Part shown: piece after piece, positions 38,357-60,868 of the stretch
Position numbering within the stretch: the first letter of the stretch is position 1
Layout of the letters: every line of letters begins with the position of its first letter
Source: Dokdonella sp.
GTDB taxonomy: Bacteria > Pseudomonadota > Gammaproteobacteria > Xanthomonadales > Rhodanobacteraceae
Reading direction: 5' to 3'
DNA length: 64,000 nucleotides
NCBI RefSeq assembly: GCF_035703485.1
Contig: NZ_DASSYD010000207.1
Span: 8,126 to 72,125 of the forward strand
Made by a program: the position numbers and the translations under genes
Notes under the pieces: model-generated
Told to the model about the DNA's origin: nothing
Seen by the model: only the letters and a program-made list of their open reading frames with translations
Database searches by the model: none

Positions 38357-40574
<2,218 letters not shown>

Positions 40575-40678
40575 CCCGCATTGAATCATGTTCATTGCAG
40601 CCAAGCCAGCCAGACGCCACCTGGTTCAAGGCGAGGGTGCTCAGATGGCACAATGGTGGCTTGTCTCAAGGAACTGCC

Positions 40679-47260: not shown

Positions 47261-48019
47261 TCAGGCGTGCAGGATGCAACGCGCAAGCTGACGCAGTTGT
47301 CCGGCTTGCAGCAACTCGACATCACGCTCATCGACGCGAATCAGGCCCTGATCCTGGAATCGACGCAGGACCCGACTGACTGTCTCCGGGGCCAATCGCA
47401 AGTGATTGGCGATGTCGCCACGCGCCATGCTCAGGCGAAAGCGCGTCGCCGAAAAACCACGCGCGGCAAATCGATCGGCGAGCAGGATCAAGAAAGCAGC
47501 CATGCGTTCGTTGGCGTTGTGATCACCGGCAAGCAGAGCCGCCTTGCCGATATCGGCGCTGAGCAGCCGGAATAGTTGCTGCTGAACACCAGGCATCCGC
47601 GTGGCCAGCGTCGCCAACGCAGGAAACGAGAAGCGGCACAGATAGACCGTATCAAGCGCAATCGCATCACACGGATAACGCGCCGGATGGATTGCGTTGA
47701 GGCCGACCATTTCACCCGGCAGATGGAAGCCGAGGATCTGTTCGCGCCCTTCCTCATCGACCGTCGAGGTTTTCACCGTTCCGGCACGCACGGCATATAT
47801 CGATTCAAATTTCTCGCCGGTACTGAAAATGCGGTCGCCGGAATGAAACGGGCCCACATGCTCGACCAGACAGTGCAGATCCTGCAGGGCGGTCTTGTCG
47901 AAACCCCCGGGTATGCAGACCTCGCCAAATGCGCAGGTCGAACAGAAGCGAACCTCATCGCCGTCACCTTCACCGGGATCGATGGGCGCAACGCGTTCAA
48001 TCGGCTTGATATTGCTCAT
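47261..48019 (-). CDS. fnr: FNR/Anr-type oxygen-sensing Crp-family regulator
   Basis: N-terminal Cys cluster FCSTCAFGEVCIP plus a central Cys (YPCDAIAL), a cNMP-like domain, and the C-terminal HTH RGDIANHLRLAPETVSRVL. The ATG at 48019 is preferred; a GTG at 48028 is possible. Confidence 0.9.
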   Translation of the reverse strand: MSNIKPIERVAPIDPGEGDGDEVRFCSTCAFGEVCIPGGFDKTALQDLHCLVEHVGPFHSGDRIFSTGEKFESIYAVRAGTVKTSTVDEEGREQILGFHLPGEMVGLNAIHPARYPCDAIALDTVYLCRFSFPALATLATRMPGVQQQLFRLLSADIGKAALLAGDHNANERMAAFLILLADRFAARGFSATRFRLSMARGDIANHLRLAPETVSRVLRRFQDQGLIRVDERDVELLQAGQLRQLARCILHA

Positions 48020-48179
48020 TGCCACCACGTGGATCGCGCCGGAGCGGCGCGTTTCAGTCCATTCGCGACCGCGAGGTCACCCCAACGGACGGACTGGATG
48101 ATACGCAGGATGCCATCGCACTGTGAACCATCCTGTCGCCGGTGAGTGGCGTGCTGCCCCGGGTTGTGGCTCCAGCCAC

Positions 48180-48764
48180 TCAGTTGCTATCGAGAACCGC
48201 CTTGATCGCGGCAATGAAGTCTGGATCGATCTTGCCCATGACATCACTGCGCGCGGCAATCCGACCCTCGGCATCGAGCAGAAGCAACACGCTGGAATGG
48301 TTGAATTCACCGTCATCGAGCTGTCGGTACTGGATTCCGAGGACAGCGGCGAGCTTGCGCACATTGGCCGCATCGGTGCGTGCCAGGGTCCAGCGGCTGG
48401 ATTGGATCTTGCGCTTTTCGGCCTGGGCCTTGAGTGCAGCAGGATCATCGCGTTCAGCATCGAAGCTGACCATCAGCACGGATAGTTTTGCCCGCTGGCT
48501 ATCGTCCAGTTTGCGCTCGGCCATGCGTGTCGTGTCGATGATCAGCGGACACATGTAGGCACACGAGGTATAGAACATCGTGACCAATCGTGGCTGGCCG
48601 CGCAGGCTGGCGAAATTGAAGGTCTTGGCGTTCTGGTCAACCAGCGGGACTTGAAGCTGGTAGACCGAATCACCCGGCAAACTGGCAGCTTTTGTCGCGG
48701 TCGCCGACGCCAACAGCAAGCCAACCAGCACGATGCGGGAAATACGGGCAGCATGCCGGATCAT
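48180..48764 (-). CDS. SCO1/SenC-family copper chaperone (thioredoxin fold)
   Basis: Signal/anchor MIRHAARISRIVLVGLLLASA, the CxxxC motif FYTSCAYMCP, and a late His (FNHSS). ATGA overlap with nirV. Confidence 0.85.
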   Translation of the reverse strand: MIRHAARISRIVLVGLLLASATATKAASLPGDSVYQLQVPLVDQNAKTFNFASLRGQPRLVTMFYTSCAYMCPLIIDTTRMAERKLDDSQRAKLSVLMVSFDAERDDPAALKAQAEKRKIQSSRWTLARTDAANVRKLAAVLGIQYRQLDDGEFNHSSVLLLLDAEGRIAARSDVMGKIDPDFIAAIKAVLDSN

Positions 48765-49579
48765 GGTGTTGTTTCCTGGTCTGGACGCACACAACGGAAG
48801 CCAACATTGCCGGTGACATCCGCTCCTTTCAGTGACGACAGCATGGCGATGCGCATGAGCACCGCGTAGTTGTCGCGATCCTGCATTGACAATGCCCCAG
48901 CGCCACAGAACTTGAGCAGATCGGGATCACCCTGGTTGCGATTGTCAGCGCTGACAAACAATGCATTGAAATCATCGACCCATTCCCAGACCAGGCCGTG
49001 CAAATCACGCACACCATAAGCATTCGGCGCGCCGCCGACCCACTCGGGATCACCGTTTGAAGTCTTCGAATACCAGCCAAGAATGCGATTTCGCCAGGCT
49101 GGATCGTTGCGTGCATCGCGATGTGTCTCATCGGCGGCAGCGACGTATTCCCATTCATGCCAGCTCGGCAACCTGGCATCTTCACTCTCGCAGTAGGCTT
49201 GCGCGGCAAACCAGCTGACCTTGACTATCGGTTGCCGGGCTTGTGCATCGGAAATGGATTGATCACCCATCCAGTGATCGAGATAGCGCGACTCGGCAAA
49301 TACACCGGCCACCTTGTCACGACGCCATTGCGGATGACTCCGCACGAAGGCCAGAAACTCGGCGTTGGTCACCGGCTCAGCGCGCATCGACATGGGCTTG
49401 ATGATGACATCGAGCGGTGTGTCTGCTGTCGGCAGTACGGATTGATAGGCGCCGCCAGGGATAGCAATGTATTCGGCGGCGACAACAGGAAATGCCAGTG
49501 CCAGCGCGATCATTCCTGCAGCCAGCCGGTGTCCCCGCCGGCTGGCTGCACGCTTCACGCTGGAGTCGAAGAAATTCAT
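48761..49579 (-). CDS. nirV: Formylglycine-generating-enzyme-family protein, NirV-like
   Basis: Sulfatase-modifying-factor fold blocks (VSWFAAQAYC, RLPSWHEWEY, GLVWEWVDD, NVGFRCV). Its position directly downstream of nirK matches the known nirK-nirV pairs. Confidence 0.75.
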   Translation of the reverse strand: MNFFDSSVKRAASRRGHRLAAGMIALALAFPVVAAEYIAIPGGAYQSVLPTADTPLDVIIKPMSMRAEPVTNAEFLAFVRSHPQWRRDKVAGVFAESRYLDHWMGDQSISDAQARQPIVKVSWFAAQAYCESEDARLPSWHEWEYVAAADETHRDARNDPAWRNRILGWYSKTSNGDPEWVGGAPNAYGVRDLHGLVWEWVDDFNALFVSADNRNQGDPDLLKFCGAGALSMQDRDNYAVLMRIAMLSSLKGADVTGNVGFRCVRPDQETTP

Positions 49580-49590
49580 CACGACAGGCC

Positions 49591-51102
49591 TTAGTGCGCC
49601 GCACCTTCGGAACGCGGTGTTTCCTTGCGCACCTTGCCCACCTGCTCGGCACTGACGCGACCATCATCATTGCCCCAGCTATTGAACACATAGGTCAGGA
49701 TGTTGGCGATTTCGTCGTTGTTGAGCTGGCTCATCGGCGGCATCACCGAATCGTATTCCTTGCCGTTGACGGTGATCTTGCCGACCAGGCCATTGAGCAC
49801 GTAATGGATGGCTGCCTCGGGATCCTTGCTCAGGAAATCGGATTTCGCCAGCGGCGGGAACACGCCCGCAAGTCCCTCGCCGTTGTCCTGATGGCAAACC
49901 GAGCAGGTTCCCGTGTAATGCGCCTTGCCTGCAGCGATCTGCTGCTCAAGCGTCAGCGTTCCACTGACTGCGGCATCACGCGCCTCGGTGACCGGTTCCA
50001 GGCTGACCGCCTTGTCACCCAGATAAACCGAATCCACTTCCTTGCCCGAATAAATCGCCTTGTCTTCCTCACCATCGACCTTGAGGATGGCCAATGCGCC
50101 CTTGTTGAAGGCGCGGAAGATCGAGTGATCGACGAGCACGTAGCTGCCCGGCACCTCGACATGGAAGTCGGCCATCATCGCGCCACCCGATGGAATCAGT
50201 GTGGTCTGCACGTTTTCCTGATAATGCGTGCCGCCTTCGTACCAGACCTTGTCGAAGATCTCGCCGATGACGTGGAAGCTTGAAACCAGGTTCGGGCCCC
50301 CGTTGCCCATGAACAGGCGCACGTGTTCGCCGGTCCTGGCCTTGAGTGCCTTTTCGTTGATCAGCGCGCCTTCCGAACCGTTGAACAGCACATAGGTCGG
50401 GTTCTCGTCGATCGCCTTCTGCATGTCGAAGGCCTGCAGGCCCTTCTCGCGGTATTTGCCAACCGTATAGAAATCGCCCTGCATCACGTAGTACTCGTGA
50501 TCAACGGGCGGCAGACCTTCCGGCGGCTCAACCAGGATCATGCCGTACATGCCATTGGCGATATGCATGCCAACCGGCGCGGTTGCGCAGTGATAGACGA
50601 ACAATCCGTGATTGAGCGCCTTGAAGGTGAACTGCGATTCATGGCCCGGCGCGGTAAAGCTCGATGACGCACCACCGCCTGGCCCGGTGACGCCGTGCAA
50701 GTCGATGTTATGCGGCATTTTTGAATCAGGATGGTTCTTCAGATGGAATTCGACCGTGTCACCCTGGCGCACGCGGATGAAACTGCCCGGCACGGTACCG
50801 CCGAAGGTCCAGAACGTGTAAGTCGACCCCTCGGAAATCTCCATTTCAAGTTCGCGAACCTCGAGTTCAACGATGACCTTGGCCGGCGCGGTACGACCCG
50901 TGGCTGGGGGAACTTCGGGAGGGCTGGTCAGAATGGCGTGAATCGGCTCACCCTGTGGCGGCCCGAAGTCGCCCTTCGCGGAGCCGCCAGTATCTACCTT
51001 CTCGGACGCTGCCAAAGCAGTCTTCGAAGGTGCCTGAGTCTCCGACGAGCAAGCCCCGAGCAACAAGGCAGACAGGGCGATTGCAATCATTACCGGCTTC
51101 AT
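49591..51102 (-). CDS. nirK: Copper-containing nitrite reductase with a C-terminal c-type cytochrome domain; predicted lipoprotein
   Basis: Start trimmed to [18 protein letters not shown] (lipobox). Type-1/type-2 Cu ligand blocks are [33 protein letters not shown] and HVIGEIFD. The C-terminal haem motif is [13 protein letters not shown]...M. Confidence 0.9.
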
Positions 51103-51166
51103 TGAATTTCCTTGAATCATGGGTTTTGGAATAGGCCACACGTTATCGAATCGTGGAGAAATCGTC

Positions 51167-51180
51167 TTGACTCTGATCAA
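51167..51180. promoter_or_regulatory. FNR/Anr/Dnr-type box (TTGAC-N4-ATCAA) in the nirK / 51410 divergent region
   Basis: ttgactctgatcaa, centred about 72 bp upstream of the nirK ATG. Confidence 0.65.
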
Positions 51181-51409
51181 GCAAAAGCGCCCCGCAAAGC
51201 CACCTGCGACAGGCTGCCGCAAGCGCTGCAAGGCTTGACGGTCAAGGCTCTGAGCCATTTGCGTTTGGACCAGCGACAGGACACGCTTGCATCCCACCCT
51301 GGCCTGCGTGAGTCTGTGCATTGATCATGCCCCCATCAGCAACACCCCTTCTCTCATTCATGCTTGACTGCGCTGCCCACGTTGCGGGTCGCGCGATCGC
51401 AATCGACCC

Positions 51410-52156
51410 ATGAACGGTTCACTGACAATCGTTGCCGCGTTGCTGCTCGGCTTGCTCGCCAGCGGTCATTGCATGTTGATGTGCGGAGGCATTTCGATGG
51501 CTCTCGGCGTTGCCACGGCCAAAGATGAGCGCGGCCGGCCGCGCCGCCTCCTGCTGCTCGGCTACCAGCTTGGTCGAATCTCTTCCTACGCATTGGCCGG
51601 CCTTCTGATCGGAACGATTGGCGGTGGCTTGATCGCGGTGCTCGATATCGAACGCGTGCGCCTCGCACTGCGTATCGCCAGCGCCGCGGCGTTGTTGATT
51701 GCGGCCCTGGTCATGCTCGGCGTGCTGCGTGATCCCGGCTCCGGGATCGGCAAGCGGCTGTGGTCAAAGATCGCCCCACTCGGGCGGCGCCTGATGCCGG
51801 TGTCAAACCTGCCGCGGGCGTTTGCCTTCGGTGCACTCTGGGGCTGGATGCCGTGCGGACTGGTCTATACCGTGCTGCTGATTGCCGCACTCAATGCCCA
51901 GGCCTGGTCCTCGGCGGCAATCATGGCCGCGTTTGGCCTGGGCACCTTGCCGGCCATGCTGATGACTTCATGGGGTGCGCCGCGCCTGCTCGGCATCTTC
52001 TCGAATGTCCGCTTGCGTCGATCCGCCGGTATCGTCTTGCTGGCCAGTGCTGCGCTGACCCTGGCCGGGCCGTTGCTGATCGGGCACGCGCCCTGGCTGC
52101 AGGGCTGGTTGCCGTTTGATTGCAGCCCCGTTACGCCATCGCAAACGGTGAAGTAA
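51410..52156 (+). CDS. DsbD_2/TauE-like membrane protein with an HCxxMCGG motif
   Basis: LLASGHCMLMCGGISMALG, then about 6 TM spans and a second GWMPCGLVY motif. Family members often accompany cbb3/anaerobic gene sets. Confidence 0.7.
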   Translation: MNGSLTIVAALLLGLLASGHCMLMCGGISMALGVATAKDERGRPRRLLLLGYQLGRISSYALAGLLIGTIGGGLIAVLDIERVRLALRIASAAALLIAALVMLGVLRDPGSGIGKRLWSKIAPLGRRLMPVSNLPRAFAFGALWGWMPCGLVYTVLLIAALNAQAWSSAAIMAAFGLGTLPAMLMTSWGAPRLLGIFSNVRLRRSAGIVLLASAALTLAGPLLIGHAPWLQGWLPFDCSPVTPSQTVK

Positions 52157-53590
52157 TCAAAGTGCGTTCGAGTAGACCGGCTTGTTCTCGCTAGCGGCCA
52201 TGCCGAGATAGGCATCGAAACACATGGCGACAATCCGCAACAGAAAGCGGCCGCGCGCGGTGACCCGGATCTGACCCGGTGGCAGATCAACAAGACCGTC
52301 GGCCTGCAACGATCTCAGACGTACCAGCTCCGACGAGAAGTAGTCTTCGAAATCGATGTCGAAGTGACGACCAAATGCCTGCATGTCGAGTTCGCCGAGG
52401 CACATGAGCTGCTGGATCACCTCAGCACGGATCACATCGTCATCACTGAGCAACATGCCACGTTGCATTGGCAGTTGGCCGTGGTCAATCGCCATGTAGT
52501 AGCCCTGCAGATTGCGCGCATTCTGGTGGAAGCTGCGGCCGATATGACCGATCGAACTCATGCCAAGACCAATCAGATCGCAATCGCCATGAGTTGAGTA
52601 GCCCTGGAAATTTCGCTGCATCGTGCCCTTGCGCTGGGCGCGCGCGAGATCATCGTCGGGCAAGGCGAAATGATCGAGTCCGATAAAGCGGAATCCAGCG
52701 GCTGCCAGTGTCTCCACGGTCTGACCAATCAGCGCGAGGCGAGTCGCCGCATCGGGCAGGTCAGCGGCCTTGATCTGGTGCTGCGCGCGGAAGCGCTCCG
52801 GCATGTGCGCGTACGAGTAAGTCGCGATCCGATCAGGTCGCAACGCAATGACCGCATCCAGAGTGCGGGCAAACTTCGCGGTCGTCTGTTTCGGCAAACC
52901 ATGGATCAGATCGACACTGACCGAGCGGAAGCCGACTTCGCGTGCCGTGTCGATGATTTCGCGCGTCTGCTCGACGCTCTGCACGCGATTGACCGCGAGC
53001 TGCACATCGTGATCGAAGTCCTGAATGCCGAGGGAAAGCCGATTGAAGCCGGCATTCGCCAGCATGCGAACCGTCGCCGCATCGGCAAAGCGGGGATCGA
53101 CCTCGATACCGAATTCCCGATCCGGCTCATCGGAAAGATTGAACCCGCCACGCAGCGCATCGAGCAAGCGAATCATCTGTTCGGCATCGAGAAAGTTCGG
53201 CGTGCCTCCGCCCAGATGCAACTGGTTGACGCGCCGATCCCGATCGAACATCGGTGCCGTCAGCTCGATCTCGCGCAGCAAGCGCCCAAGATATTCATCG
53301 GCGCGTCGCCGATCCCGGGTAATGATGCGCGTGCATCCGCAATAGAAGCACGGGCTCAGACAAAACGGTATGTGCACATAGATCGATAGCGCGCGCGGAA
53401 TCGGATCCTCGTTCGAGGCGCGAACGATGGCGCGCAATTCCGCCTCGGAGAATTTTTCATGGAACTGCGGCGCAGTCGGATACGAGGTGTAGCGAGGCCC
53501 GCGAATGTCGTAGCGAGCGACCAGCTCCGCATCGAACACCTGGGTGCTTGCGGAAATCGGCGATGGATGAAAATGAGTGAGCGTGGCCAT
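52157..53590 (-). CDS. hemN: Oxygen-independent coproporphyrinogen III oxidase (radical SAM)
   Basis: Start trimmed to MATLTHFHPSP. RGPRYTSYPTAPQF, the radical-SAM motif YVHIPFCLSPCFYCGC, and HLGGGTPNFL. Confidence 0.9.
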   Translation of the reverse strand: MATLTHFHPSPISASTQVFDAELVARYDIRGPRYTSYPTAPQFHEKFSEAELRAIVRASNEDPIPRALSIYVHIPFCLSPCFYCGCTRIITRDRRRADEYLGRLLREIELTAPMFDRDRRVNQLHLGGGTPNFLDAEQMIRLLDALRGGFNLSDEPDREFGIEVDPRFADAATVRMLANAGFNRLSLGIQDFDHDVQLAVNRVQSVEQTREIIDTAREVGFRSVSVDLIHGLPKQTTAKFARTLDAVIALRPDRIATYSYAHMPERFRAQHQIKAADLPDAATRLALIGQTVETLAAAGFRFIGLDHFALPDDDLARAQRKGTMQRNFQGYSTHGDCDLIGLGMSSIGHIGRSFHQNARNLQGYYMAIDHGQLPMQRGMLLSDDDVIRAEVIQQLMCLGELDMQAFGRHFDIDFEDYFSSELVRLRSLQADGLVDLPPGQIRVTARGRFLLRIVAMCFDAYLGMAASENKPVYSNAL

Positions 53591-53624
53591 GCGTGGATCC
53601 TGCGCGAAGCCGGCCATGCCCGCC

Positions 53625-53638
53625 TTGATCCATGTCAA
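53625..53638. promoter_or_regulatory. FNR box (TTGAT-N4-GTCAA) upstream of hemN
   Basis: ttgatccatgtcaa, centred about 41 bp upstream of the hemN ATG. Confidence 0.7.
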
Positions 53639-53649
53639 CCGGAATTGCG

Positions 53650-53726
<77 letters not shown>

Positions 53727-58061: not shown

Positions 58062-58457
58062 ATGAAAGAAATACCCGGTGATCTGTTGTTCCTCAAATCC
58101 CACGAGTGGGTCCGTGTTGAAGATGACGGCACGGCTACTGTCGGCATTTCCGACCATGCGCAGGGCTTGCTCGGTGATCTGGTCTATGTCGAACTTCCAG
58201 ACGTTGGCGATAGCGCGAAGCCGGGAACGGCGGCGGCGGTTGTCGAATCCGTCAAGGCAGCTTCGGACGTATATTCTCCGGTCAGTGGTGAGATCGTCGC
58301 AGTCAACGAAGCCCTCGCCGATACTCCGGAAACGATCAACGAAGATGCCTATGGCGAGGGTTGGATTTTCGTCGTCAAACTCGATAGTCGCGACGAGCTC
58401 GATGACATGCTCGGACCCGACGCATATGCCGAGCTGATTGAAAACGAGGAAGGCTGA
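58062..58457 (+). CDS. gcvH: Glycine cleavage system protein H
   Basis: [24 protein letters not shown]...[16 protein letters not shown] (lipoyl-Lys motif). Confidence 0.95.
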
Positions 58458-58491
58458 GTCGAATTCACACCAGTCGTCTTGAGTACATGGA

Positions 58492-58524
58492 AGCGGGCCA
58501 GGGAAATCTGGCTCGCTTTTTTTT
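58492..58524 (+). terminator. Rho-independent terminator after gcvH
   Basis: agcgggcca-gggaaatc-tggctcgct followed by T8. Confidence 0.7.
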
Positions 58525-58856
58525 GCTCTCAATGCGCGTTCAAGCAAAATAATTCTCGCCTTCATTTGGCTGCGGTTTAGCTTGTCGCGGCATCACTTTT
58601 CGTCGTTGAAGCAGGGACTTGAATGATGACAATTCAATCGATCGGCGAAGCAATGAATGAGAGCAGATTGCAGGTTTTAACCCGCCATAGGGCGATATAT
58701 CTAGCTATCCGGGTTTTGTCCTGAATTATGTCGGGACGTATAAACGTCTATATGGCTCATACAAAACAGTTGGACTCATTGCACGTTACTGAAAGTTCAG
58801 CGCGGCACTGGCACTGGCGATGGAAACTCCAGAGCCTTGTTTTTTGTCAGAAATCT

Positions 58857-58884
58857 GTTGACACTCGCATCCGACAAGCATAAT
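58857..58884 (+). promoter_or_regulatory. Sigma70-like promoter for the MetJ-like gene
   Basis: TTGACA-16 nt-CATAAT, about 40 bp upstream of the ATG at 58923. Confidence 0.45.
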
Positions 58885-58922
58885 TTTCGCGTCAGCAACA
58901 CTACGGAATCCAAAATAGAATC

Positions 58923-59552
58923 ATGGCTGCATCCAGATTCGTCGAACCCTATATCGAGCACGGCCTGAAATCATCGGCCACAAGAAAAATCACGGTATCG
59001 ATTCCACTGCACATCCTTCGACTTCTGTCCGATGAACGGACCCGGCGCCAGGTAGCGAACCTGCGCCACGCGACAAACAGCAACCTGCTGTGCGAAGCAT
59101 TTCTTCACGCTTTTACTGGGCAACCACTGCCAACTGACGAGGAGTTAAGACGCGATATGGCCACAAAGAAAGCAACAGCGAAAAAGAAACCAGCTGCGAA
59201 GAAACCTGCCGCCAAAAAAGCGGCAAAGAAAGTAGCTGCCAAGAAGGCTCCAGCAAAGAAGAAGACAGCCAAGGCCAAAGTGGCCAAAGCTGTAAAGAAA
59301 GCTCCAGCAAAGAAGGTCGCAGCCAAGAAGGCGCCGGCGAAAAAGGCTCCAGCAAAGAAAGCTGCGAAAAAGACGGTGAAGAAGGTCGCAGCGAAGAAAG
59401 CTCCGGCCAAAAAAGTCGCAAAGAAGGCTGCGAAGAAGAAAACAGCCAGGGCCAAAACAGCGACAGCCATGAAAAAGGCGCCGGCCAAGAAGGCGGCCGC
59501 AAAGAAGGCTCCAGCAAAGAAAGCTGCCAAAAAGGCCGCCAAGAAGAAATAG
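58923..59552 (+). CDS. metJ: MetJ-type ribbon-helix-helix repressor core fused to a histone H1-like Lys/Ala-rich tail (209 aa)
   Basis: Residues 1-78 ([68 protein letters not shown]) match E. coli MetJ as I recall it ([57 protein letters not shown]). Residues 79-209 are (A/P)AKK(A/V) repeats. Confidence 0.8.
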
Positions 59553-59562
59553 TGTTCCTTGA

Positions 59563-59588
59563 GGTTGGTTGTCGGCTGGCAACCAACC
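59563..59588 (+). terminator. Stem-loop after the MetJ-like gene (no U-tract)
   Basis: ggttggttg-tcggctgg-caaccaacc. Confidence 0.4.
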
Positions 59589-59785
59589 CTTGACTGGACG
59601 CCGCGCATCGCATCGTTGGTGCCAGGCAGTACAGAGTCACTGCACACCAAGTGCAGGTAAATAAGCTTCATGATCCAGCAATCGAACTCCTCTCCCTGCG
59701 GTATGCCCAGCGCAGGGAGAGATTTCGAAAAGCGGATTCAGCTTTTTGAAGTGCTCGAAACTTTCGGCCAGCTGCCCGCGAATAG

Positions 59786-60112
59786 CTACAACCGGGTTTC
59801 AGGCTCCGCCGCATGCAGCTCATCGGGCCTGGTTCGCGACTGAAGAATCCTCGCCACCAGCATTGATCCCGCTGATGATCGAATCAGCGACCATCCGAAG
59901 CTTGCTGTCGAGTGTACCGACCGGGTCACATCGCGCAGTCGACCGCGGCCCATCAGCAGGCCGGCAACGAACCCGCCTCCCACCAGCAAAGTCGGCCGCC
60001 AGCGCTCGAATCTGTCGCTCAGGTCTTCCGTTTTCAGTTTCAGCTTTTGTCGTCGCGCGATCAGATTGACCGAAGCGCTCCGCACCCGTTGGCGATCATC
60101 CTTGAGACTCAT
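59786..60112 (-). CDS. YqjK-like small membrane protein
   Basis: Start trimmed to MSLKDDRQRVRSASVNLIARRQKLKLK...TLLVGGGFVAGLLMG. ATGA overlap with the upstream gene. It is third in a yqjD-yqjE-yqjK-like order. Confidence 0.5.
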   Translation of the reverse strand: MSLKDDRQRVRSASVNLIARRQKLKLKTEDLSDRFERWRPTLLVGGGFVAGLLMGRGRLRDVTRSVHSTASFGWSLIRSSAGSMLVARILQSRTRPDELHAAEPETRL

Positions 60113-60549
60113 GCATCCTCCGGCCCGGTTGCTGAACTGACTTCGTTGTCGTTGACGGATCTGACCGAAACGATCAACGCGCGTGTTTGTGGAAGGCTCA
60201 CATCCCGCCAGCATCGGCGCATCGCCAAAGTTACCCAGACCACGCCGCCCAGATTGATGGCGGCAACCACTGCAACACCAAGAAAAAGGTTTCCGCTGAG
60301 CTGGTAGACGCCGAGCGCAATCGCTGCAATTGTCGATAGCCAGGCGCCAGCGCCGAGCGCAACAAGCGCGAACGCCAGCCAGACAATCGTCAGTGCGCTG
60401 CTGCGTGCCAGGCGAAGCTCGCTGCGCAACAGGCTAAATGACGCCTCAATGACCTGGAGTGCGCCACGCAACGCGTCGCGCATCGTATCCAGCAGCGAAT
60501 CCGCTGTTGCGGGAGCAGCCTCATCGATACTTTCATTTTCTGCCGGCAC
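60109..60549 (-). CDS. YqjE-like (phage-holin-3_6/DUF1469 family) membrane protein
   Basis: LRSELRLARSSALTIVWLAFALVALGAGAWL... and a second TM. GTG start. Confidence 0.65.
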   Translation of the reverse strand: MPAENESIDEAAPATADSLLDTMRDALRGALQVIEASFSLLRSELRLARSSALTIVWLAFALVALGAGAWLSTIAAIALGVYQLSGNLFLGVAVVAAINLGGVVWVTLAMRRCWRDVSLPQTRALIVSVRSVNDNEVSSATGPEDA

Positions 60550-60559
60550 GTTGTTGAAC

Positions 60560-60868
60560 TCAGCGACGACGCATCATGCGCGTAAGCAATACCCCTGCGG
60601 CCACCGCGATTCCGACGGCTGCCAGTGGATGTGCGCGAATCTGCTCCGACGCCACCGTTCCGAGTCGCTTGGCGCCATCGCCGAATCGCTCACCCGCGGC
60701 ATTCAGTTCATCGTGCAGGGCACTGCCGTTGTTGCGCAGGCGCTCGCTGAAGCGACTGGCGCTACTTGCCACCTGATCGATTCCATCGCTTATCTGATCC
60801 GCGATCTTGCTCGTGACCTGATCGTTGCCATCAATCGCCTTGGCTCCTGATTTTGCTGAAGTGTTCAT
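60560..60868 (-). CDS. DUF883/ElaB/YqjD-family C-tail-anchored protein
   Basis: Helical N-terminal region followed by IRAHPLAAVGIAVAAGVLLTRMMRRR, the family-typical tail anchor. AGAGGAA RBS. Confidence 0.75.
   Translation of the reverse strand: MNTSAKSGAKAIDGNDQVTSKIADQISDGIDQVASSASRFSERLRNNGSALHDELNAAGERFGDGAKRLGTVASEQIRAHPLAAVGIAVAAGVLLTRMMRRR

What the first reader, a model, noticed from the sequence alone, without database searches (positions are those of the whole stretch)
58923..59552. MetJ repressor core fused to a histone-H1-like (AKKA)n tail
The first 78 residues align almost residue-for-residue with E. coli MetJ through the beta-strand and helices A/B ([45 protein letters not shown]). 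MetJ's last 27 residues or so are replaced by about 130 aa of Lys/Ala/Pro repeats ([26 protein letters not shown]...), like bacterial H1-like nucleoid proteins such as AlgP or Hc1. An internal Met (…[14 protein letters not shown]) marks where a free-standing H1-like gene could once have started. MetJ is, to my knowledge, characteristic of Enterobacterales, Vibrionales and their neighbours rather than Xanthomonadales-like genomes. The gene sits in an AT-richer 1.3-kb patch after gcvH. The product would be a sequence-specific, SAM-responsive RHH repressor tethered to a non-specific DNA-coating tail. I have not seen that design described.
Basis: partly seen in the sequence, partly recalled or inferred. 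Interest (0 to 1): 0.75.

Follow-up and report, generated by a model that had tools for sequence, protein, structure and literature searches.

The report
MetJ repressor with polylysine-alanine tail
This gene encodes the methionine repressor MetJ with its normal acidic end replaced by a long, highly positive Lys/Ala tail; the form is shared by the whole family Rhodanobacteraceae, still has MetJ binding sites in front of its own gene, and carries a conserved internal ribosome-binding site that probably also produces the tail alone as a histone-H1-like protein.

Summary
ORF 58923-59552 (+, 209 aa) has residues 1-78 that are MetJ: Pfam 125.9 bits against a cut-off of 25, NCBIfam equivalog 131.8 against 110, and 69% identity to E. 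coli MetJ. Residues 79-209 are a tail of 56 Lys, 49 Ala and no acidic residue.

It is not an artefact or a recent island. All 87 related loci, from 12 named Rhodanobacteraceae genera including complete isolate genomes, carry the same in-frame fusion at the same junction, downstream of gcvT-gcvH.

DNA-reading and SAM-contact residues are retained. A tandem met-box array of 2-4 boxes sits about 172 bp upstream of the ATG; 88 of 90 strong met-box hits in 485 kb lie there. This argues for autoregulation.

Two new points emerged:
- Codons 63-76 are frozen at synonymous sites. They give GAGGAG, 9-12 nt, then ATG(Met79)-GCN in 77 of 78 loci, in a local minimum of RNA structure. This is an embedded translation start, so a tail-only H1-like protein is probably also made.
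- The operator lies about 99 bp upstream of a conserved TTGACA promoter, not over it.

I class it as a new variant of a known kind. Databases already name it MetJ, but I found no paper describing the tail.

The parts
58489..58520 (+). Intrinsic terminator-like hairpin after gcvH (14-bp stem followed by a T8 run). It makes metJ a separate transcription unit.
   Evidence: terminator scan; MFE -28.4 kcal/mol, z=-5.2.
58679..58719 (+). Second hairpin followed by TTTTG, just upstream of the met boxes. A hairpin is seen at this position in many related loci. Its role is unknown.
   Evidence: alignment consensus aA..cc....gG.TTt; MFE -16.5, z=-2.0, weak.
58734..58757 (+). Met-box array, the putative MetJ operator: GGACGTAT AAACGTCT ATATGGCT. 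The first two boxes match the AGACGTCT x2 consensus at 13/16.
   Evidence: the only hit in the 64-kb window with up to 3 mismatches (0.04 expected); an equivalent array of 2-4 boxes at -147 to -191 from the ATG in 58/77 loci at >=12/16; 88 of 90 hits at >=13/16 in 485 kb lie at this position.
58858..58886 (+). Conserved sigma-70-type promoter. The -35 is TTGACA (58858-58863), followed by a 17-bp spacer and the -10 TAATTT (58881-58886). It starts 100 bp after the end of the met-box array.
   Evidence: TTGACA found in 71/77 loci, with -10 TAGCTT, TAATTT or TAGTTT in 67/71. The gap from array end to -35 is mostly 95-102 bp. The strict consensus scan did not call it, because the -10 matches only 3/6.
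58923..59552 (+). Full-length CDS, MetJ core plus Lys/Ala tail, 209 aa (coordinates include the stop codon).
58923..59156 (+). MetJ core, residues 1-78: N-terminal loop, beta-strand KITVSIP, helix A and helix B. DNA-reading residues K22/T24 and SAM-contact residues E38, R41 and 58-66 are identical to E. coli.
   Evidence: SAM contacts are taken from PMC2775130.
59109..59150 (+). Codons 63-76, frozen at synonymous sites across the family: GCT TTT ACT GGG CAA CCA CTG CCA ACT GAY GAG GAG CTN AGA. The SD-like GAGGAG is at 59139-59144.
   Evidence: codon entropy <=0.3 bit here against 0.8-2.1 elsewhere; Glu 73/74 are GAG in 78/78 and 78/79, while other Glu columns are 27-47% minor codon; rare AGA in 74/75; the element is absent from E. 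coli metJ; anti-SD duplex -8.4 kcal/mol, in the top 1.2% of all ATGs in the window.
59157..59552 (+). Nested in-frame ORF from Met79. It is the Lys/Ala/Pro tail (131 aa) and the putative separately translated H1-like product.
   Evidence: Met79 invariant in 121 sequences. ATG 100%, second codon GCN 97-99%, 40-nt MFE minimum of -3 to -4 kcal/mol centred on this ATG against -8 to -12 in the flanks; 15-nt repeat units.

Best explanation
The gene is the Rhodanobacteraceae form of metJ.

What is shown: one polypeptide keeps the complete ribbon-helix-helix and SAM-binding core of MetJ (residues 1-78). MetJ's acidic C-terminal segment (helix C and end, net charge -5 in E. coli) is replaced by a disordered polycationic (AKKxA)n tail, +57 here and a median of about 72 aa in relatives.

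What is inferred: the core dimer still reads tandem AGACGTCT met boxes through its beta-ribbon and still binds SAM. The protein would therefore be a SAM-responsive repressor that at least autoregulates through a conserved array of 2-4 boxes upstream of its own gene. The tail would add strong sequence-independent electrostatic affinity for DNA (or another polyanion) flanking the operator.

Further inference from nucleotide conservation (my estimate is about 0.55): the mRNA contains an embedded translation-initiation region, consisting of a U/CA-rich tract, GAGGAG, 9-12 nt and ATG-GCN at Met79. The same gene would then also yield the free tail as a 131-aa histone-H1-like protein, expressed under the same promoter and operator.
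For: MetJ identity:
- HMM scores lie far above the curated cut-offs, and the alignment to 1cma is gapless.
- Columns K22, T24, R39, N46-S53, E58-P70 are invariant or nearly so in 121 homologues.
- SAM contacts Glu39/Arg42 and residues 59-67 (PMC2775130) are conserved in the window protein.

Real and selected fusion:
- 87/87 loci are in frame, although tail length varies from 36 to 131 aa.
- No stop ever separates core and tail, even though R77 is CGA in 42 loci, one transition away from TGA.

Vertical inheritance: gcvT-gcvH-(gcvP)-metJ-...-tonB-like-beta-lactamase synteny is seen in six genera.

Operator:
- The only tandem met-box hit in the window lies upstream of metJ.
- Equivalent arrays occur at a conserved position in 58/77 loci, most with p<=0.01 against shuffles.
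- 88 of 90 strong hits in 485 kb lie there.
- Helix C is dispensable for met-box use: an 81-aa MetJ that ends right after the core sits beside perfect met boxes and a metX/metZ-type operon.

Internal start:
- GAGGAG is present in 77/78 loci, against 59% GAA at the other Glu codons of the same genes. The rare AGA codon is fixed, while neighbouring synonymous sites vary.
- The element is absent from E. coli metJ.
- ATG is 100% conserved and a GCN second codon 97-99%. A sharp minimum of RNA structure is centred on Met79.
- Anti-SD binding averages -8.3 kcal/mol, against -3.8 at the annotated start.

Tail as a DNA-binding module: Lys-rich tails of this kind bind or modulate DNA in Ku, HupB and TopA (PMC3553676, PMC5676037, PMC7398561).
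Against: - No binding, SAM response or protein product was measured. All function is inferred from sequence.
- The met boxes do not overlap the conserved promoter. They end about 99 bp upstream of its -35, so simple promoter occlusion is not explained, and I could not identify a convincing distal promoter over the boxes (and by eye).
- The regulon could not be examined. No met biosynthesis gene lies in the window or in the fetched loci.
- 15 of 81 loci (the Dyella/Rhodanobacter group) have Leu and His/Tyr at the positions of SAM-contact residues Glu39 and Arg42. SAM control may therefore not be universal in the clade.
- The SD-to-ATG spacing of 12 nt in the window is at the long end of what works.
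- The frozen codons extend to -48. That is longer than a minimal initiation region and could reflect another element.
- The AF2 model was uninformative, with pLDDT 48.
Confidence: 0.7

Rival explanations
1. There is a single product. The fusion is real, but Met79 is not used as a start. On this view the frozen nucleotides (GAGGAG, rare AGA, ACT GGG CAA CCA CTG CCA ACT) serve another purpose. Candidates are a programmed translational pause between the folded core and the disordered tail to allow co-translational dimerisation, an mRNA stability or processing site, or a binding site for an sRNA or protein.
For: - The conservation reaches back to -48 nt from the ATG, beyond a minimal ribosome-binding site.
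- It uses rare codons at a domain boundary.
- The SD-to-ATG spacing is 12 nt in many loci.
- The tail-only search identified no free-standing tail protein as an ancestor.
Against: - A pause built from rare codons would tolerate any rare synonym, yet specific nucleotides are fixed.
- Met79 and an Ala second codon are invariant, although residue 78 is freely variable or deleted.
- The minimum of RNA structure is centred precisely on the ATG.
- The SD is stronger than that of the annotated start.
- Together these are the standard signature of an initiation site.
Confidence: 0.3
2. The protein is a derived nucleoid protein. The MetJ core has lost its role as methionine regulator, and the protein is now mainly a general Lys-rich chromatin protein. 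The met-box-like sites would serve only for autoregulation or as nucleation points, and SAM would no longer matter.
For: - The operator is 99 bp away from the promoter.
- SAM-contact residues are replaced in 15/81 loci.
- Published Xanthomonadales methionine regulons are run by SamR, MetR and SAH riboswitches, not by MetJ (PMC4239095).
- The tail charge of +57 per monomer would dominate DNA affinity.
Against: - In the window and in 66/81 loci, every SAM-contact and DNA-reading residue is identical to E. coli MetJ, under obvious purifying selection.
- The NCBIfam equivalog threshold is passed.
- The met boxes keep the canonical consensus and the 8-bp register.
Confidence: 0.15
3. The finding is an artefact or a recent import. 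Either the ORF results from a frameshift or mis-assembly that joins metJ to a neighbouring H1-like gene, or it lies on a recently acquired AT-rich island.
For: - GC is lower, 0.46-0.55 against about 0.6, and the gene's GC3 is 0.56 against about 0.7 for its neighbours.
- The window comes from what looks like a metagenome-assembled genome. Its nearest relative, L008, is a MAG.
Against: - The same junction is found in 87/87 loci, including finished isolate genomes.
- Synteny is conserved across six genera.
- No split version was found among the 68 representative clusters of the whole MetJ family.
Confidence: 0.02

Closest known systems
E. coli MetJ (PF01340; PDB 1cma, 1cmb, 1cmc, 1mj2)
   Same: - Residues 4-78 are 69% identical, with no gaps.
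- The beta-strand (KITVSIP), helices A and B, the SAM-contact residues and the phosphate-contact residues are shared.
- Tandem AGACGTCT operators lie upstream of its own gene.
   Different: - Residues 80-105 of E. coli MetJ (helix C and the acidic end, net charge -5) are absent. They are replaced by a Lys/Ala tail of 36-131 aa, +57 in the window.
- T37 is Ser.
- The operator lies about 99 bp upstream of the conserved promoter rather than in a metJ-metB divergent control region.
- An internal SD+ATG is present that E. coli lacks.
Short MetJ homologues that end after the core (for example P0149, 81 aa, locus L088; also P0126, P0130, P0132)
   Same: - They lack helix C and end at ...P(T/N/K)D(D/E)(E/Q)L(R/K/Q)..., the same truncation point.
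- They are still associated with perfect met boxes.
   Different: - They have no basic tail and no internal start.
- In L088 the gene is divergent from a metX / Cys_Met_Meta_PP operon.
- The source organisms are unknown (metagenomic contigs).
Myxobacterial CarD with a histone-H1-like C-terminal domain (Garcia-Heras et al. 2009, PNAS 106:13546, cited in PMC4374960)
   Same: A bacterial transcription factor whose DNA-anchoring C-terminal domain is a Lys/Ala/Pro-rich H1-like region. I rely on the title and my own knowledge, because the paper itself could not be opened.
   Different: The N-terminal domain of CarD binds RNA polymerase and CarG, not DNA, so CarD has no sequence-specific reader. There is no small-molecule corepressor.
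Mycobacterial HupB/Hlp and Ku with PAKKA repeats; actinobacterial TopA lysine repeats
   Same: A folded DNA-binding domain followed by a low-complexity Lys/Ala/Pro tail that modulates DNA binding, bridging or processivity. The authors propose that such tails evolved repeatedly on unrelated DNA-binding proteins (PMC3553676, PMC5676037, PMC7398561).
   Different: The folded domains are non-sequence-specific (HU, Ku, topoisomerase), the organisms are Actinobacteria, and no nested internal start has been reported.
AlgP / Hc1 / Hc2 / Burkholderia H1-like proteins (PF07382, NF038052, NF038053)
   Same: Composition and pentapeptide-type KxAAK repeats. There are weak sub-threshold HMM hits.
   Different: - Scores are below all curated cut-offs, so there is no evidence of common descent.
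- These are free-standing proteins.
- AlgP also associates with polyphosphate granules (PMC9239181), which raises a non-DNA target as a possibility for the tail.

Membership tests
MetJ (PF01340 / NCBIfam NF003622 equivalog) | Profile-HMM score above the curated threshold | tested here: met
   PF01340 scores 125.9 bits against 25. NF003622 scores 131.8 against 110. The core alone scores 130.8.
MetJ (PF01340 / NCBIfam NF003622 equivalog) | Ribbon-helix-helix core with the base-reading beta-strand residues (E. coli Lys23, Thr25) and the helix A/B N-terminal phosphate contacts | tested here: met
   The alignment to 1cma is gapless. K22, T24, R39, N52 and S53 are invariant or nearly so in 121 homologues. 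The residue roles come from Somers & Phillips 1992 as cited in PMC2775130, and from my own knowledge.
MetJ (PF01340 / NCBIfam NF003622 equivalog) | SAM-contact residues (Glu39, Arg42, residues 59-67) | tested here: met
   In the window, E38, R41 and residues 58-66 are identical to E. coli (contacts from PMC2775130). In 15/81 related loci they are replaced by L and H/Y.
MetJ (PF01340 / NCBIfam NF003622 equivalog) | C-terminal helix C and acidic end (E. coli residues about 80-105) | tested here: not met
   This segment is replaced by the Lys/Ala tail from residue 79. Natural MetJ homologues that lack it still have met boxes, so I do not treat it as essential to the family.
MetJ (PF01340 / NCBIfam NF003622 equivalog) | Tandem 8-bp met boxes (AGACGTCT) at regulated genes, including metJ itself | tested here: met
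   Own gene. The rest of the regulon could not be reached with the sequence available.
MetJ (PF01340 / NCBIfam NF003622 equivalog) | SAM-dependent increase of operator affinity | not testable with these tools
   This needs EMSA or ITC with and without SAM.
Bacterial histone-H1-like proteins (PF07382 HC2; NF038053 Burkholderia H1-like; NF038052 Hc2) | Profile-HMM score above the curated threshold | tested here: not met
   HC2 scores 26.4 bits against 40, NF038053 scores 27.1 against 80, and NF038052 scores 12.8 against 135.
Bacterial histone-H1-like proteins (PF07382 HC2; NF038053 Burkholderia H1-like; NF038052 Hc2) | Lys/Ala/Pro low-complexity repeats, no acidic residues, predicted disorder | tested here: met
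   The tail is 43% K, 37% A, 7% P and 0 D/E. It consists of 15-nt repeat units. AF2 gives it no secondary structure, although the model has low confidence.
Bacterial histone-H1-like proteins (PF07382 HC2; NF038053 Burkholderia H1-like; NF038052 Hc2) | Non-specific DNA binding or compaction | not testable with these tools
   Inferred from composition and from analogues (PMC3553676, PMC5676037).

The most novel reading that the evidence does not exclude
One reading frame encodes two proteins, and the operator works at a distance.

From Met1 comes a SAM-sensing, met-box-specific repressor carrying a polycationic tail. From the conserved internal SD/ATG at Met79 comes the free tail, a histone-H1-like nucleoid protein. 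The dosage of a chromatin protein would then be wired to the SAM/methionine status of the cell through MetJ autoregulation.

The full-length protein nucleates at met boxes placed a fixed distance of about 99 bp upstream of the promoter. It would silence that promoter through tail-mediated coating, bending or bridging of the spacer, rather than by occlusion.
Probability: 0.3. Interest if true: 0.8.

Novelty: new variant of a known kind. Interest (0 to 1): 0.6.

Why it matters
MetJ is the textbook case of a repressor activated electrostatically by the positive charge of its corepressor SAM (Phillips & Phillips 1994, cited in PMC2775130 and PMC1282579). A whole bacterial family has exchanged MetJ's acidic C-terminus for +30 to +57 charges per monomer. 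This is a natural experiment on that model. It asks whether SAM still matters, or whether the tail replaces, amplifies or redirects the electrostatic switch.

The finding also extends the known range of MetJ beyond the six gammaproteobacterial orders to which published regulon reconstructions confine it (PMC4239095). That raises the question of how MetJ coexists with the SamR, MetR and riboswitch control described for Xanthomonadales.

The embedded, conserved internal initiation site would be a clean bacterial example of a nested gene that makes a regulator and a nucleoid protein from one frame. The fixed 99-bp offset between operator and promoter points to a mode of repression other than occlusion. 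Both ideas can be tested directly in cultivable Rhodanobacter, Dyella, Luteibacter or Dokdonella strains.

Tried and rejected
- **AlphaFold2 of the full-length protein with a 121-sequence alignment.** Mean pLDDT was 48, as expected for an obligate intertwined dimer with a shallow alignment. I did not use it for fold search; 69% identity to a solved structure makes that unnecessary.
- **RNAalifold on the roughly 100-bp spacer between boxes and promoter in 40 loci.** It predicted no pairs, so there is no evidence for a structured leader or sRNA.
- **Rfam on the whole window at gathering thresholds and on 58440-59200 at E<=1.** It found nothing but terminator look-alikes, so no riboswitch lies upstream of metJ.
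- **Consensus promoter scan of 58400-59800.** It gave no hits. The conserved TTGACA/TAnnTT promoter was found only through the multi-genome alignment. I could not establish a distal promoter over the boxes; the window candidate TTGTCC-17-TATAAA is not conserved.
- **Tail-only database search.** It returned only 29 hits, mostly the same MetJ proteins. The rest are Lys/Ala tails on SWIB, BlaI-type, DksA/TraR, HU and peroxiredoxin domains. No free-standing ancestor was identified.
- **Scan for other Lys/Ala-rich ORFs in the window.** None was found.
- **Search for a split (two-gene) version.** None was found among the 87 loci or the 68 family representatives.
- **Extra met-box hit in L069 at +2470.** It lies inside overlapping ORFs and is probably chance.
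- **Recent horizontal island.** Rejected because of conserved synteny.
- **Regulon reconstruction.** Not possible.
- **Garcia-Heras et al. 2009 (PMC2726384).** The paper is not held in the library.
Full report
**1. The observation**

The window has an ATG-initiated ORF at 58923-59552 (+) of 209 aa.

- The first 78-88 residues are MetJ by every test available. Pfam PF01340 scores 125.9 bits (cut-off 25). The NCBIfam equivalog model NF003622 scores 131.8 bits (cut-off 110). The first 78 residues alone score the same.
- Against the PDB, residues 4-78 align without a gap to E. coli MetJ residues 5-79 (1cma, E=8e-33). Identity is 52/75 = 69%.
- From residue 79 the sequence is 131 aa of Lys (56), Ala (49), Pro, Thr and Val, with one Arg and no acidic residue.
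- At the DNA level the tail is made of degenerate 15-nt units plus a 69-nt duplication.
- The tail touches the histone-H1-like models (HC2 PF07382, the Burkholderia H1-like NF038053, Hc2 NF038052) only below their cut-offs. 'H1-like' therefore describes composition, not demonstrated homology.
- The E. coli segment that the tail replaces (residues 80-105, helix C and the end) has a net charge of -5. The replacement has +57.

**2. Real, old and family-wide**

- A search of the 5.8-billion-protein collection with the full protein returned 925 hits. The best 120 all carry PF01340, are 114-244 aa long, and are named MetJ where a name exists. The named sources are Dokdonella, Tahibacter, Metallibacterium, Dyella, Fulvimonas and Rhodanobacteraceae MAGs.
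- In an alignment of 121 of them, the core, the junction TDEELRR(D/T)MA(T/M)KK and Met79 are invariant or nearly so. The tail keeps its composition (39% K, 36% A) but varies from 36 to 131 aa, with a median of 72. The window has the longest.
- A scan of one genome per species found relatives in at least 458 places. The best 80 are all Rhodanobacteraceae-type genomes: Dokdonella, Rhodanobacter, Dyella, Luteibacter, Frateuria, Rudaea, Tahibacter, Mizugakiibacter, Oleiagrimonas, Pinirhizobacter and many MAGs (taxonomy).
- All 87 loci examined encode the tail in frame. The apparent exceptions are contig-end truncations or Arg/Thr-richer tails.
- Close relatives of the window differ in tail length (209, 196, 180, 152, 149 and 144 aa), so the repeats expand and contract quickly.
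- The neighbourhood gcvT-gcvH-(gcvP)-metJ-...-tonB-like-(GPP34)-beta-lactamase is shared by six genera and by the window.

The gene was therefore inherited vertically within the family. The lower-GC patch is a long intergenic region plus a Lys-rich, low-GC3 gene, not a recent island. An assembly or frameshift artefact is excluded.

**3. The MetJ family as a whole**

An exhaustive HMMER pass over 1.84 billion cluster representatives finds only 68 clusters for the MetJ core. They fall into four groups:

- the canonical form of about 105 aa with helix C;
- the Lys/Ala(Arg)-tailed form;
- forms that simply stop after the core (P0126, P0130, P0132, P0149);
- one form with an unrelated helical C-terminal domain (P0159, 211 aa).

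The 81-aa form P0149 lies divergently from a metX / Cys_Met_Meta_PP operon. The intergenic region holds perfect met boxes, AGACGTCT in an array of 4 and again in an array of 2. Helix C is thus naturally dispensable for met-box regulation. This makes its replacement in the tailed clade unproblematic, and suggests the tail was added to an already shortened MetJ.

**4. Does it still act as MetJ?**

- The base-reading strand (K22, T24 = E. coli K23, T25), the phosphate contacts and the residues that contact SAM are identical in the window protein. The SAM contacts are Glu39, Arg42 and residues 59-67 according to PMC2775130.
- The only place in the 64-kb window that matches two tandem met boxes with up to 3 mismatches is 58734-58749, upstream of this gene (0.04 expected).
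- The same is true across the family. In 58 of 77 loci the best 16-mer in the 350 bp upstream of metJ matches AGACGTCTAGACGTCT at >=12/16. It always lies at -147 to -191 (median -172) from the ATG, mostly with p<=0.01 against shuffles. Two to four boxes are in 8-bp register.
- Of 90 hits at >=13/16 on both strands in 485 kb of fetched DNA, 88 lie at this position.

Selection has therefore kept a MetJ operator in front of the tailed metJ for as long as the family has existed. This is strong indirect evidence that the protein binds met boxes in vivo and autoregulates, as E. coli MetJ does. SAM dependence is inferred only from residue conservation. Notably, 15 of 81 loci (the Dyella/Rhodanobacter group...SDLRT(H/Y)RQV...) have replaced the Glu39 and Arg42 equivalents.

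**5. Unexpected geometry**

- Aligning 78 upstream regions reveals a strongly conserved sigma-70-type promoter. It has TTGACA (window 58858-58863), a 17-bp spacer and TAGCTT/TAATTT (58881-58886). The -35 lies 46-65 bp before the ATG.
- The met-box array ends mostly 95-102 bp upstream of that -35, and 100 bp in the window. The outliers differ by about one 8-bp box.
- The spacer sequence is barely conserved, has no consensus RNA structure and has no Rfam match.
- A strong terminator follows gcvH (58489-58520), and a weaker hairpin plus T-run precedes the boxes.

The operator therefore does not occlude the conserved promoter. Two explanations remain. Either a second, weakly conserved promoter overlaps the boxes (E. 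coli metJ has several promoters; this is my own knowledge). Or repression acts over a fixed distance of about 100 bp, for which a DNA-coating or bending tail would be a plausible agent. This remains unexplained.

**6. An embedded translation start at Met79**

Because Met79 is invariant while residue 78 is variable or absent, I examined the codons.

- In 77 of 78 loci, Glu73-Glu74 are GAG-GAG. The other Glu codons of the same genes are 59% GAA.
- A per-codon survey shows that synonymous sites vary freely through codons 5-62 (entropy 0.8-2.1 bits). They are almost frozen from codon 63 to 76: GCT TTT ACT GGG CAA CCA CTG CCA ACT GAY GAG GAG CTN AGA. These are codons rare for these GC-rich genomes, including AGA in 74/75 loci.
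- E. coli metJ has GCC GAT CTG CGT at the corresponding place, so it has no SD-like element.
- Downstream, ATG is 100% conserved and the second codon GCN 97-99%.
- The mean folding energy of 40-nt windows has a sharp minimum (-3 to -4 kcal/mol) centred on this ATG. The flanks are at -8 to -12, and the annotated start is at -5 to -7.
- Pairing to the anti-SD averages -8.3 kcal/mol, against -3.8 at the annotated start. The window's internal site ranks in the top 1.2% of its 2,096 ATGs.
- The spacing is 9-12 nt.

This is the signature of a functional initiation region inside the gene. The most economical reading is that ribosomes also start at Met79 and make the tail alone, 131 aa in the window, as a free H1-like protein. 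The fusion itself is also under selection. No locus has a stop between core and tail, although R77 is CGA, one transition from TGA, in 42 loci. I put the probability that the internal start is used at about 0.55. The main alternative is a pausing or other RNA-level element.

**7. Mechanism proposed**

Shown:
- the MetJ core with intact reading and SAM-contact residues;
- a polycationic disordered tail in place of an acidic C-terminus;
- a conserved met-box operator;
- a conserved promoter;
- a conserved internal SD/ATG.

Inferred:
- The dimer binds the boxes cooperatively in the presence of SAM.
- The two tails (+114 per dimer here) add non-specific electrostatic affinity to flanking DNA. This stabilises occupancy of short 2-box operators and possibly reaches the promoter 100 bp away.
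- The free tail is co-expressed and acts as a nucleoid-associated or polyanion-binding protein.

MetJ's activation by SAM is held to be largely electrostatic (PMC1282579, PMC2775130). The tail may therefore change how much SAM matters.

**8. Comparison with what is known**

- *Membership in the MetJ family* is met on HMM thresholds, core residues and operator type. The one canonical feature not met (helix C and the acidic end) is also missing from other natural MetJ homologues.
- *Membership in any H1-like family* is not met; only composition matches.
- *The design principle*, a folded DNA-binding domain plus a Lys/Ala/Pro tail, is known. Examples are mycobacterial Ku and Hlp/HupB, actinobacterial TopA and myxobacterial CarD. 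It has been proposed to arise repeatedly (PMC3553676, PMC5676037, PMC7398561; Garcia-Heras 2009 as cited in PMC4374960).
- My tail-only search also found such tails on SWIB, BlaI-type, DksA/TraR, HU and peroxiredoxin domains.
- *What I did not find described:* the tail on MetJ, MetJ in Xanthomonadales-type bacteria, the internal start, and the offset operator. On the second point, PMC4239095 reports MetJ in six other gammaproteobacterial groups only, and SamR in the 4 Xanthomonadales genomes studied.
- Databases already label these proteins MetJ, and precomputed Pfam annotation lists PF01340 together with PF07382.

**9. Verdict**

The gene is typical of its family rather than an oddity of this genome. 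I class it as a new variant of a known kind.

Interest is moderate to high (0.6). It offers a natural test of MetJ's electrostatic activation model, a probable nested regulator/nucleoid-protein gene, and an unexplained fixed operator-promoter offset. All of these are open to simple experiments in cultivable strains.

Noticed in passing
window 58734-58863 (and the equivalent regions of L001-L087): The met-box array ends at a nearly fixed distance (mostly 95-102 bp, 100 bp in the window) upstream of the conserved TTGACA -35 hexamer. The spacer sequence is poorly conserved and shows no consensus RNA structure. The reason for the fixed spacing is unknown.
   Followed up: partly
window 58679-58719: A hairpin followed by TTTTG lies directly upstream of the met boxes, about 160 bp after the strong gcvH terminator (58489-58520). 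A comparable hairpin appears in many related loci. It might end a small unannotated transcript or insulate the operator.
   Followed up: partly
window 58840-58863; Dyella-group loci such as L003, L058, L073: An inverted repeat abuts or overlaps the -35 hexamer: TGTCA-N9-TGACA in the window, and ATTGATTTC-N6-AAATCAAT|TGACA in the Dyella group. It could be a binding site for another regulator.
   Followed up: no
L003, L034, L081, L082, L084, L085, L087 and others (15 of 81 loci): In the Dyella/Rhodanobacter lineage, the residues equivalent to the SAM contacts Glu39 and Arg42 are Leu and His/Tyr (SDLRT(H/Y)RQV). The met-box operator is retained. Corepressor binding may be lost or altered in this lineage.
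   Followed up: partly
L088 4769-4847 and 5001-5246: An 81-aa MetJ homologue (P0149) ends right after the core, with no helix C and no tail. It is divergent from a metX / Cys_Met_Meta_PP operon, with perfect met boxes (arrays of 4 and of 2) in between. The source is a metagenomic contig from an unidentified organism.
   Followed up: partly
P0159 (211 aa, metagenomic, 7-kb contig): A MetJ core at 53% identity is fused to a different C-terminal domain of about 130 aa. That domain is non-basic and looks helical from its sequence. It represents another, unexplored MetJ architecture.
   Followed up: no
L003 8001-8735 (Dyella thiooxydans, P0107) and P0120: The deposited gene models start 57 or 23 codons too early. 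In P0107 the annotated start is an ATG inside the met boxes, giving a 244-aa 'MetJ'. The conserved promoter lies inside the annotated extension, so this is probably a start-site mis-annotation.
   Followed up: partly
window 59157-59549 compared with L008-L012: Tail length differs among relatives whose first 79-91 residues are 92-100% identical (209, 196, 180, 152, 149 and 144 aa) through gain and loss of 15-nt and roughly 69-nt repeat units. This makes it a hypervariable coding repeat.
   Followed up: partly
window 40495-40576 (-): A TPP riboswitch lies upstream of thiC (38360-40438, -). It scores only 32.9 bits (gathering 54.3, E=1e-4), so the default Rfam scan missed it. It is a divergent THI element.
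   Followed up: partly
window 59786-60868 (-): Three small minus-strand ORFs (141, 146 and 101 aa) lie between metJ and the tonB-like gene and have no Pfam match. Called genes of similar size with no Pfam hit on record occupy the same place in L001 and L006.
   Followed up: no
P0177 (416 aa) and P0185 (709 aa): Two metagenomic 'proteins' are made of 8 or more tandem copies of a unit of about 55 aa and weakly match MetJ residues 3-33. They are probably translated repeat DNA, and their nature is unknown.
   Followed up: no
window 47264-52153: A cluster of genes lies 7-12 kb upstream of metJ: a Crp/Fnr-type regulator, SCO1/SenC, an FGE-sulfatase-domain protein, a multicopper oxidase with a cytochrome c domain, and DsbD_2. 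hemN follows at 52160-53683. The cluster looks like a copper nitrite-reductase or denitrification accessory cluster.
   Followed up: no
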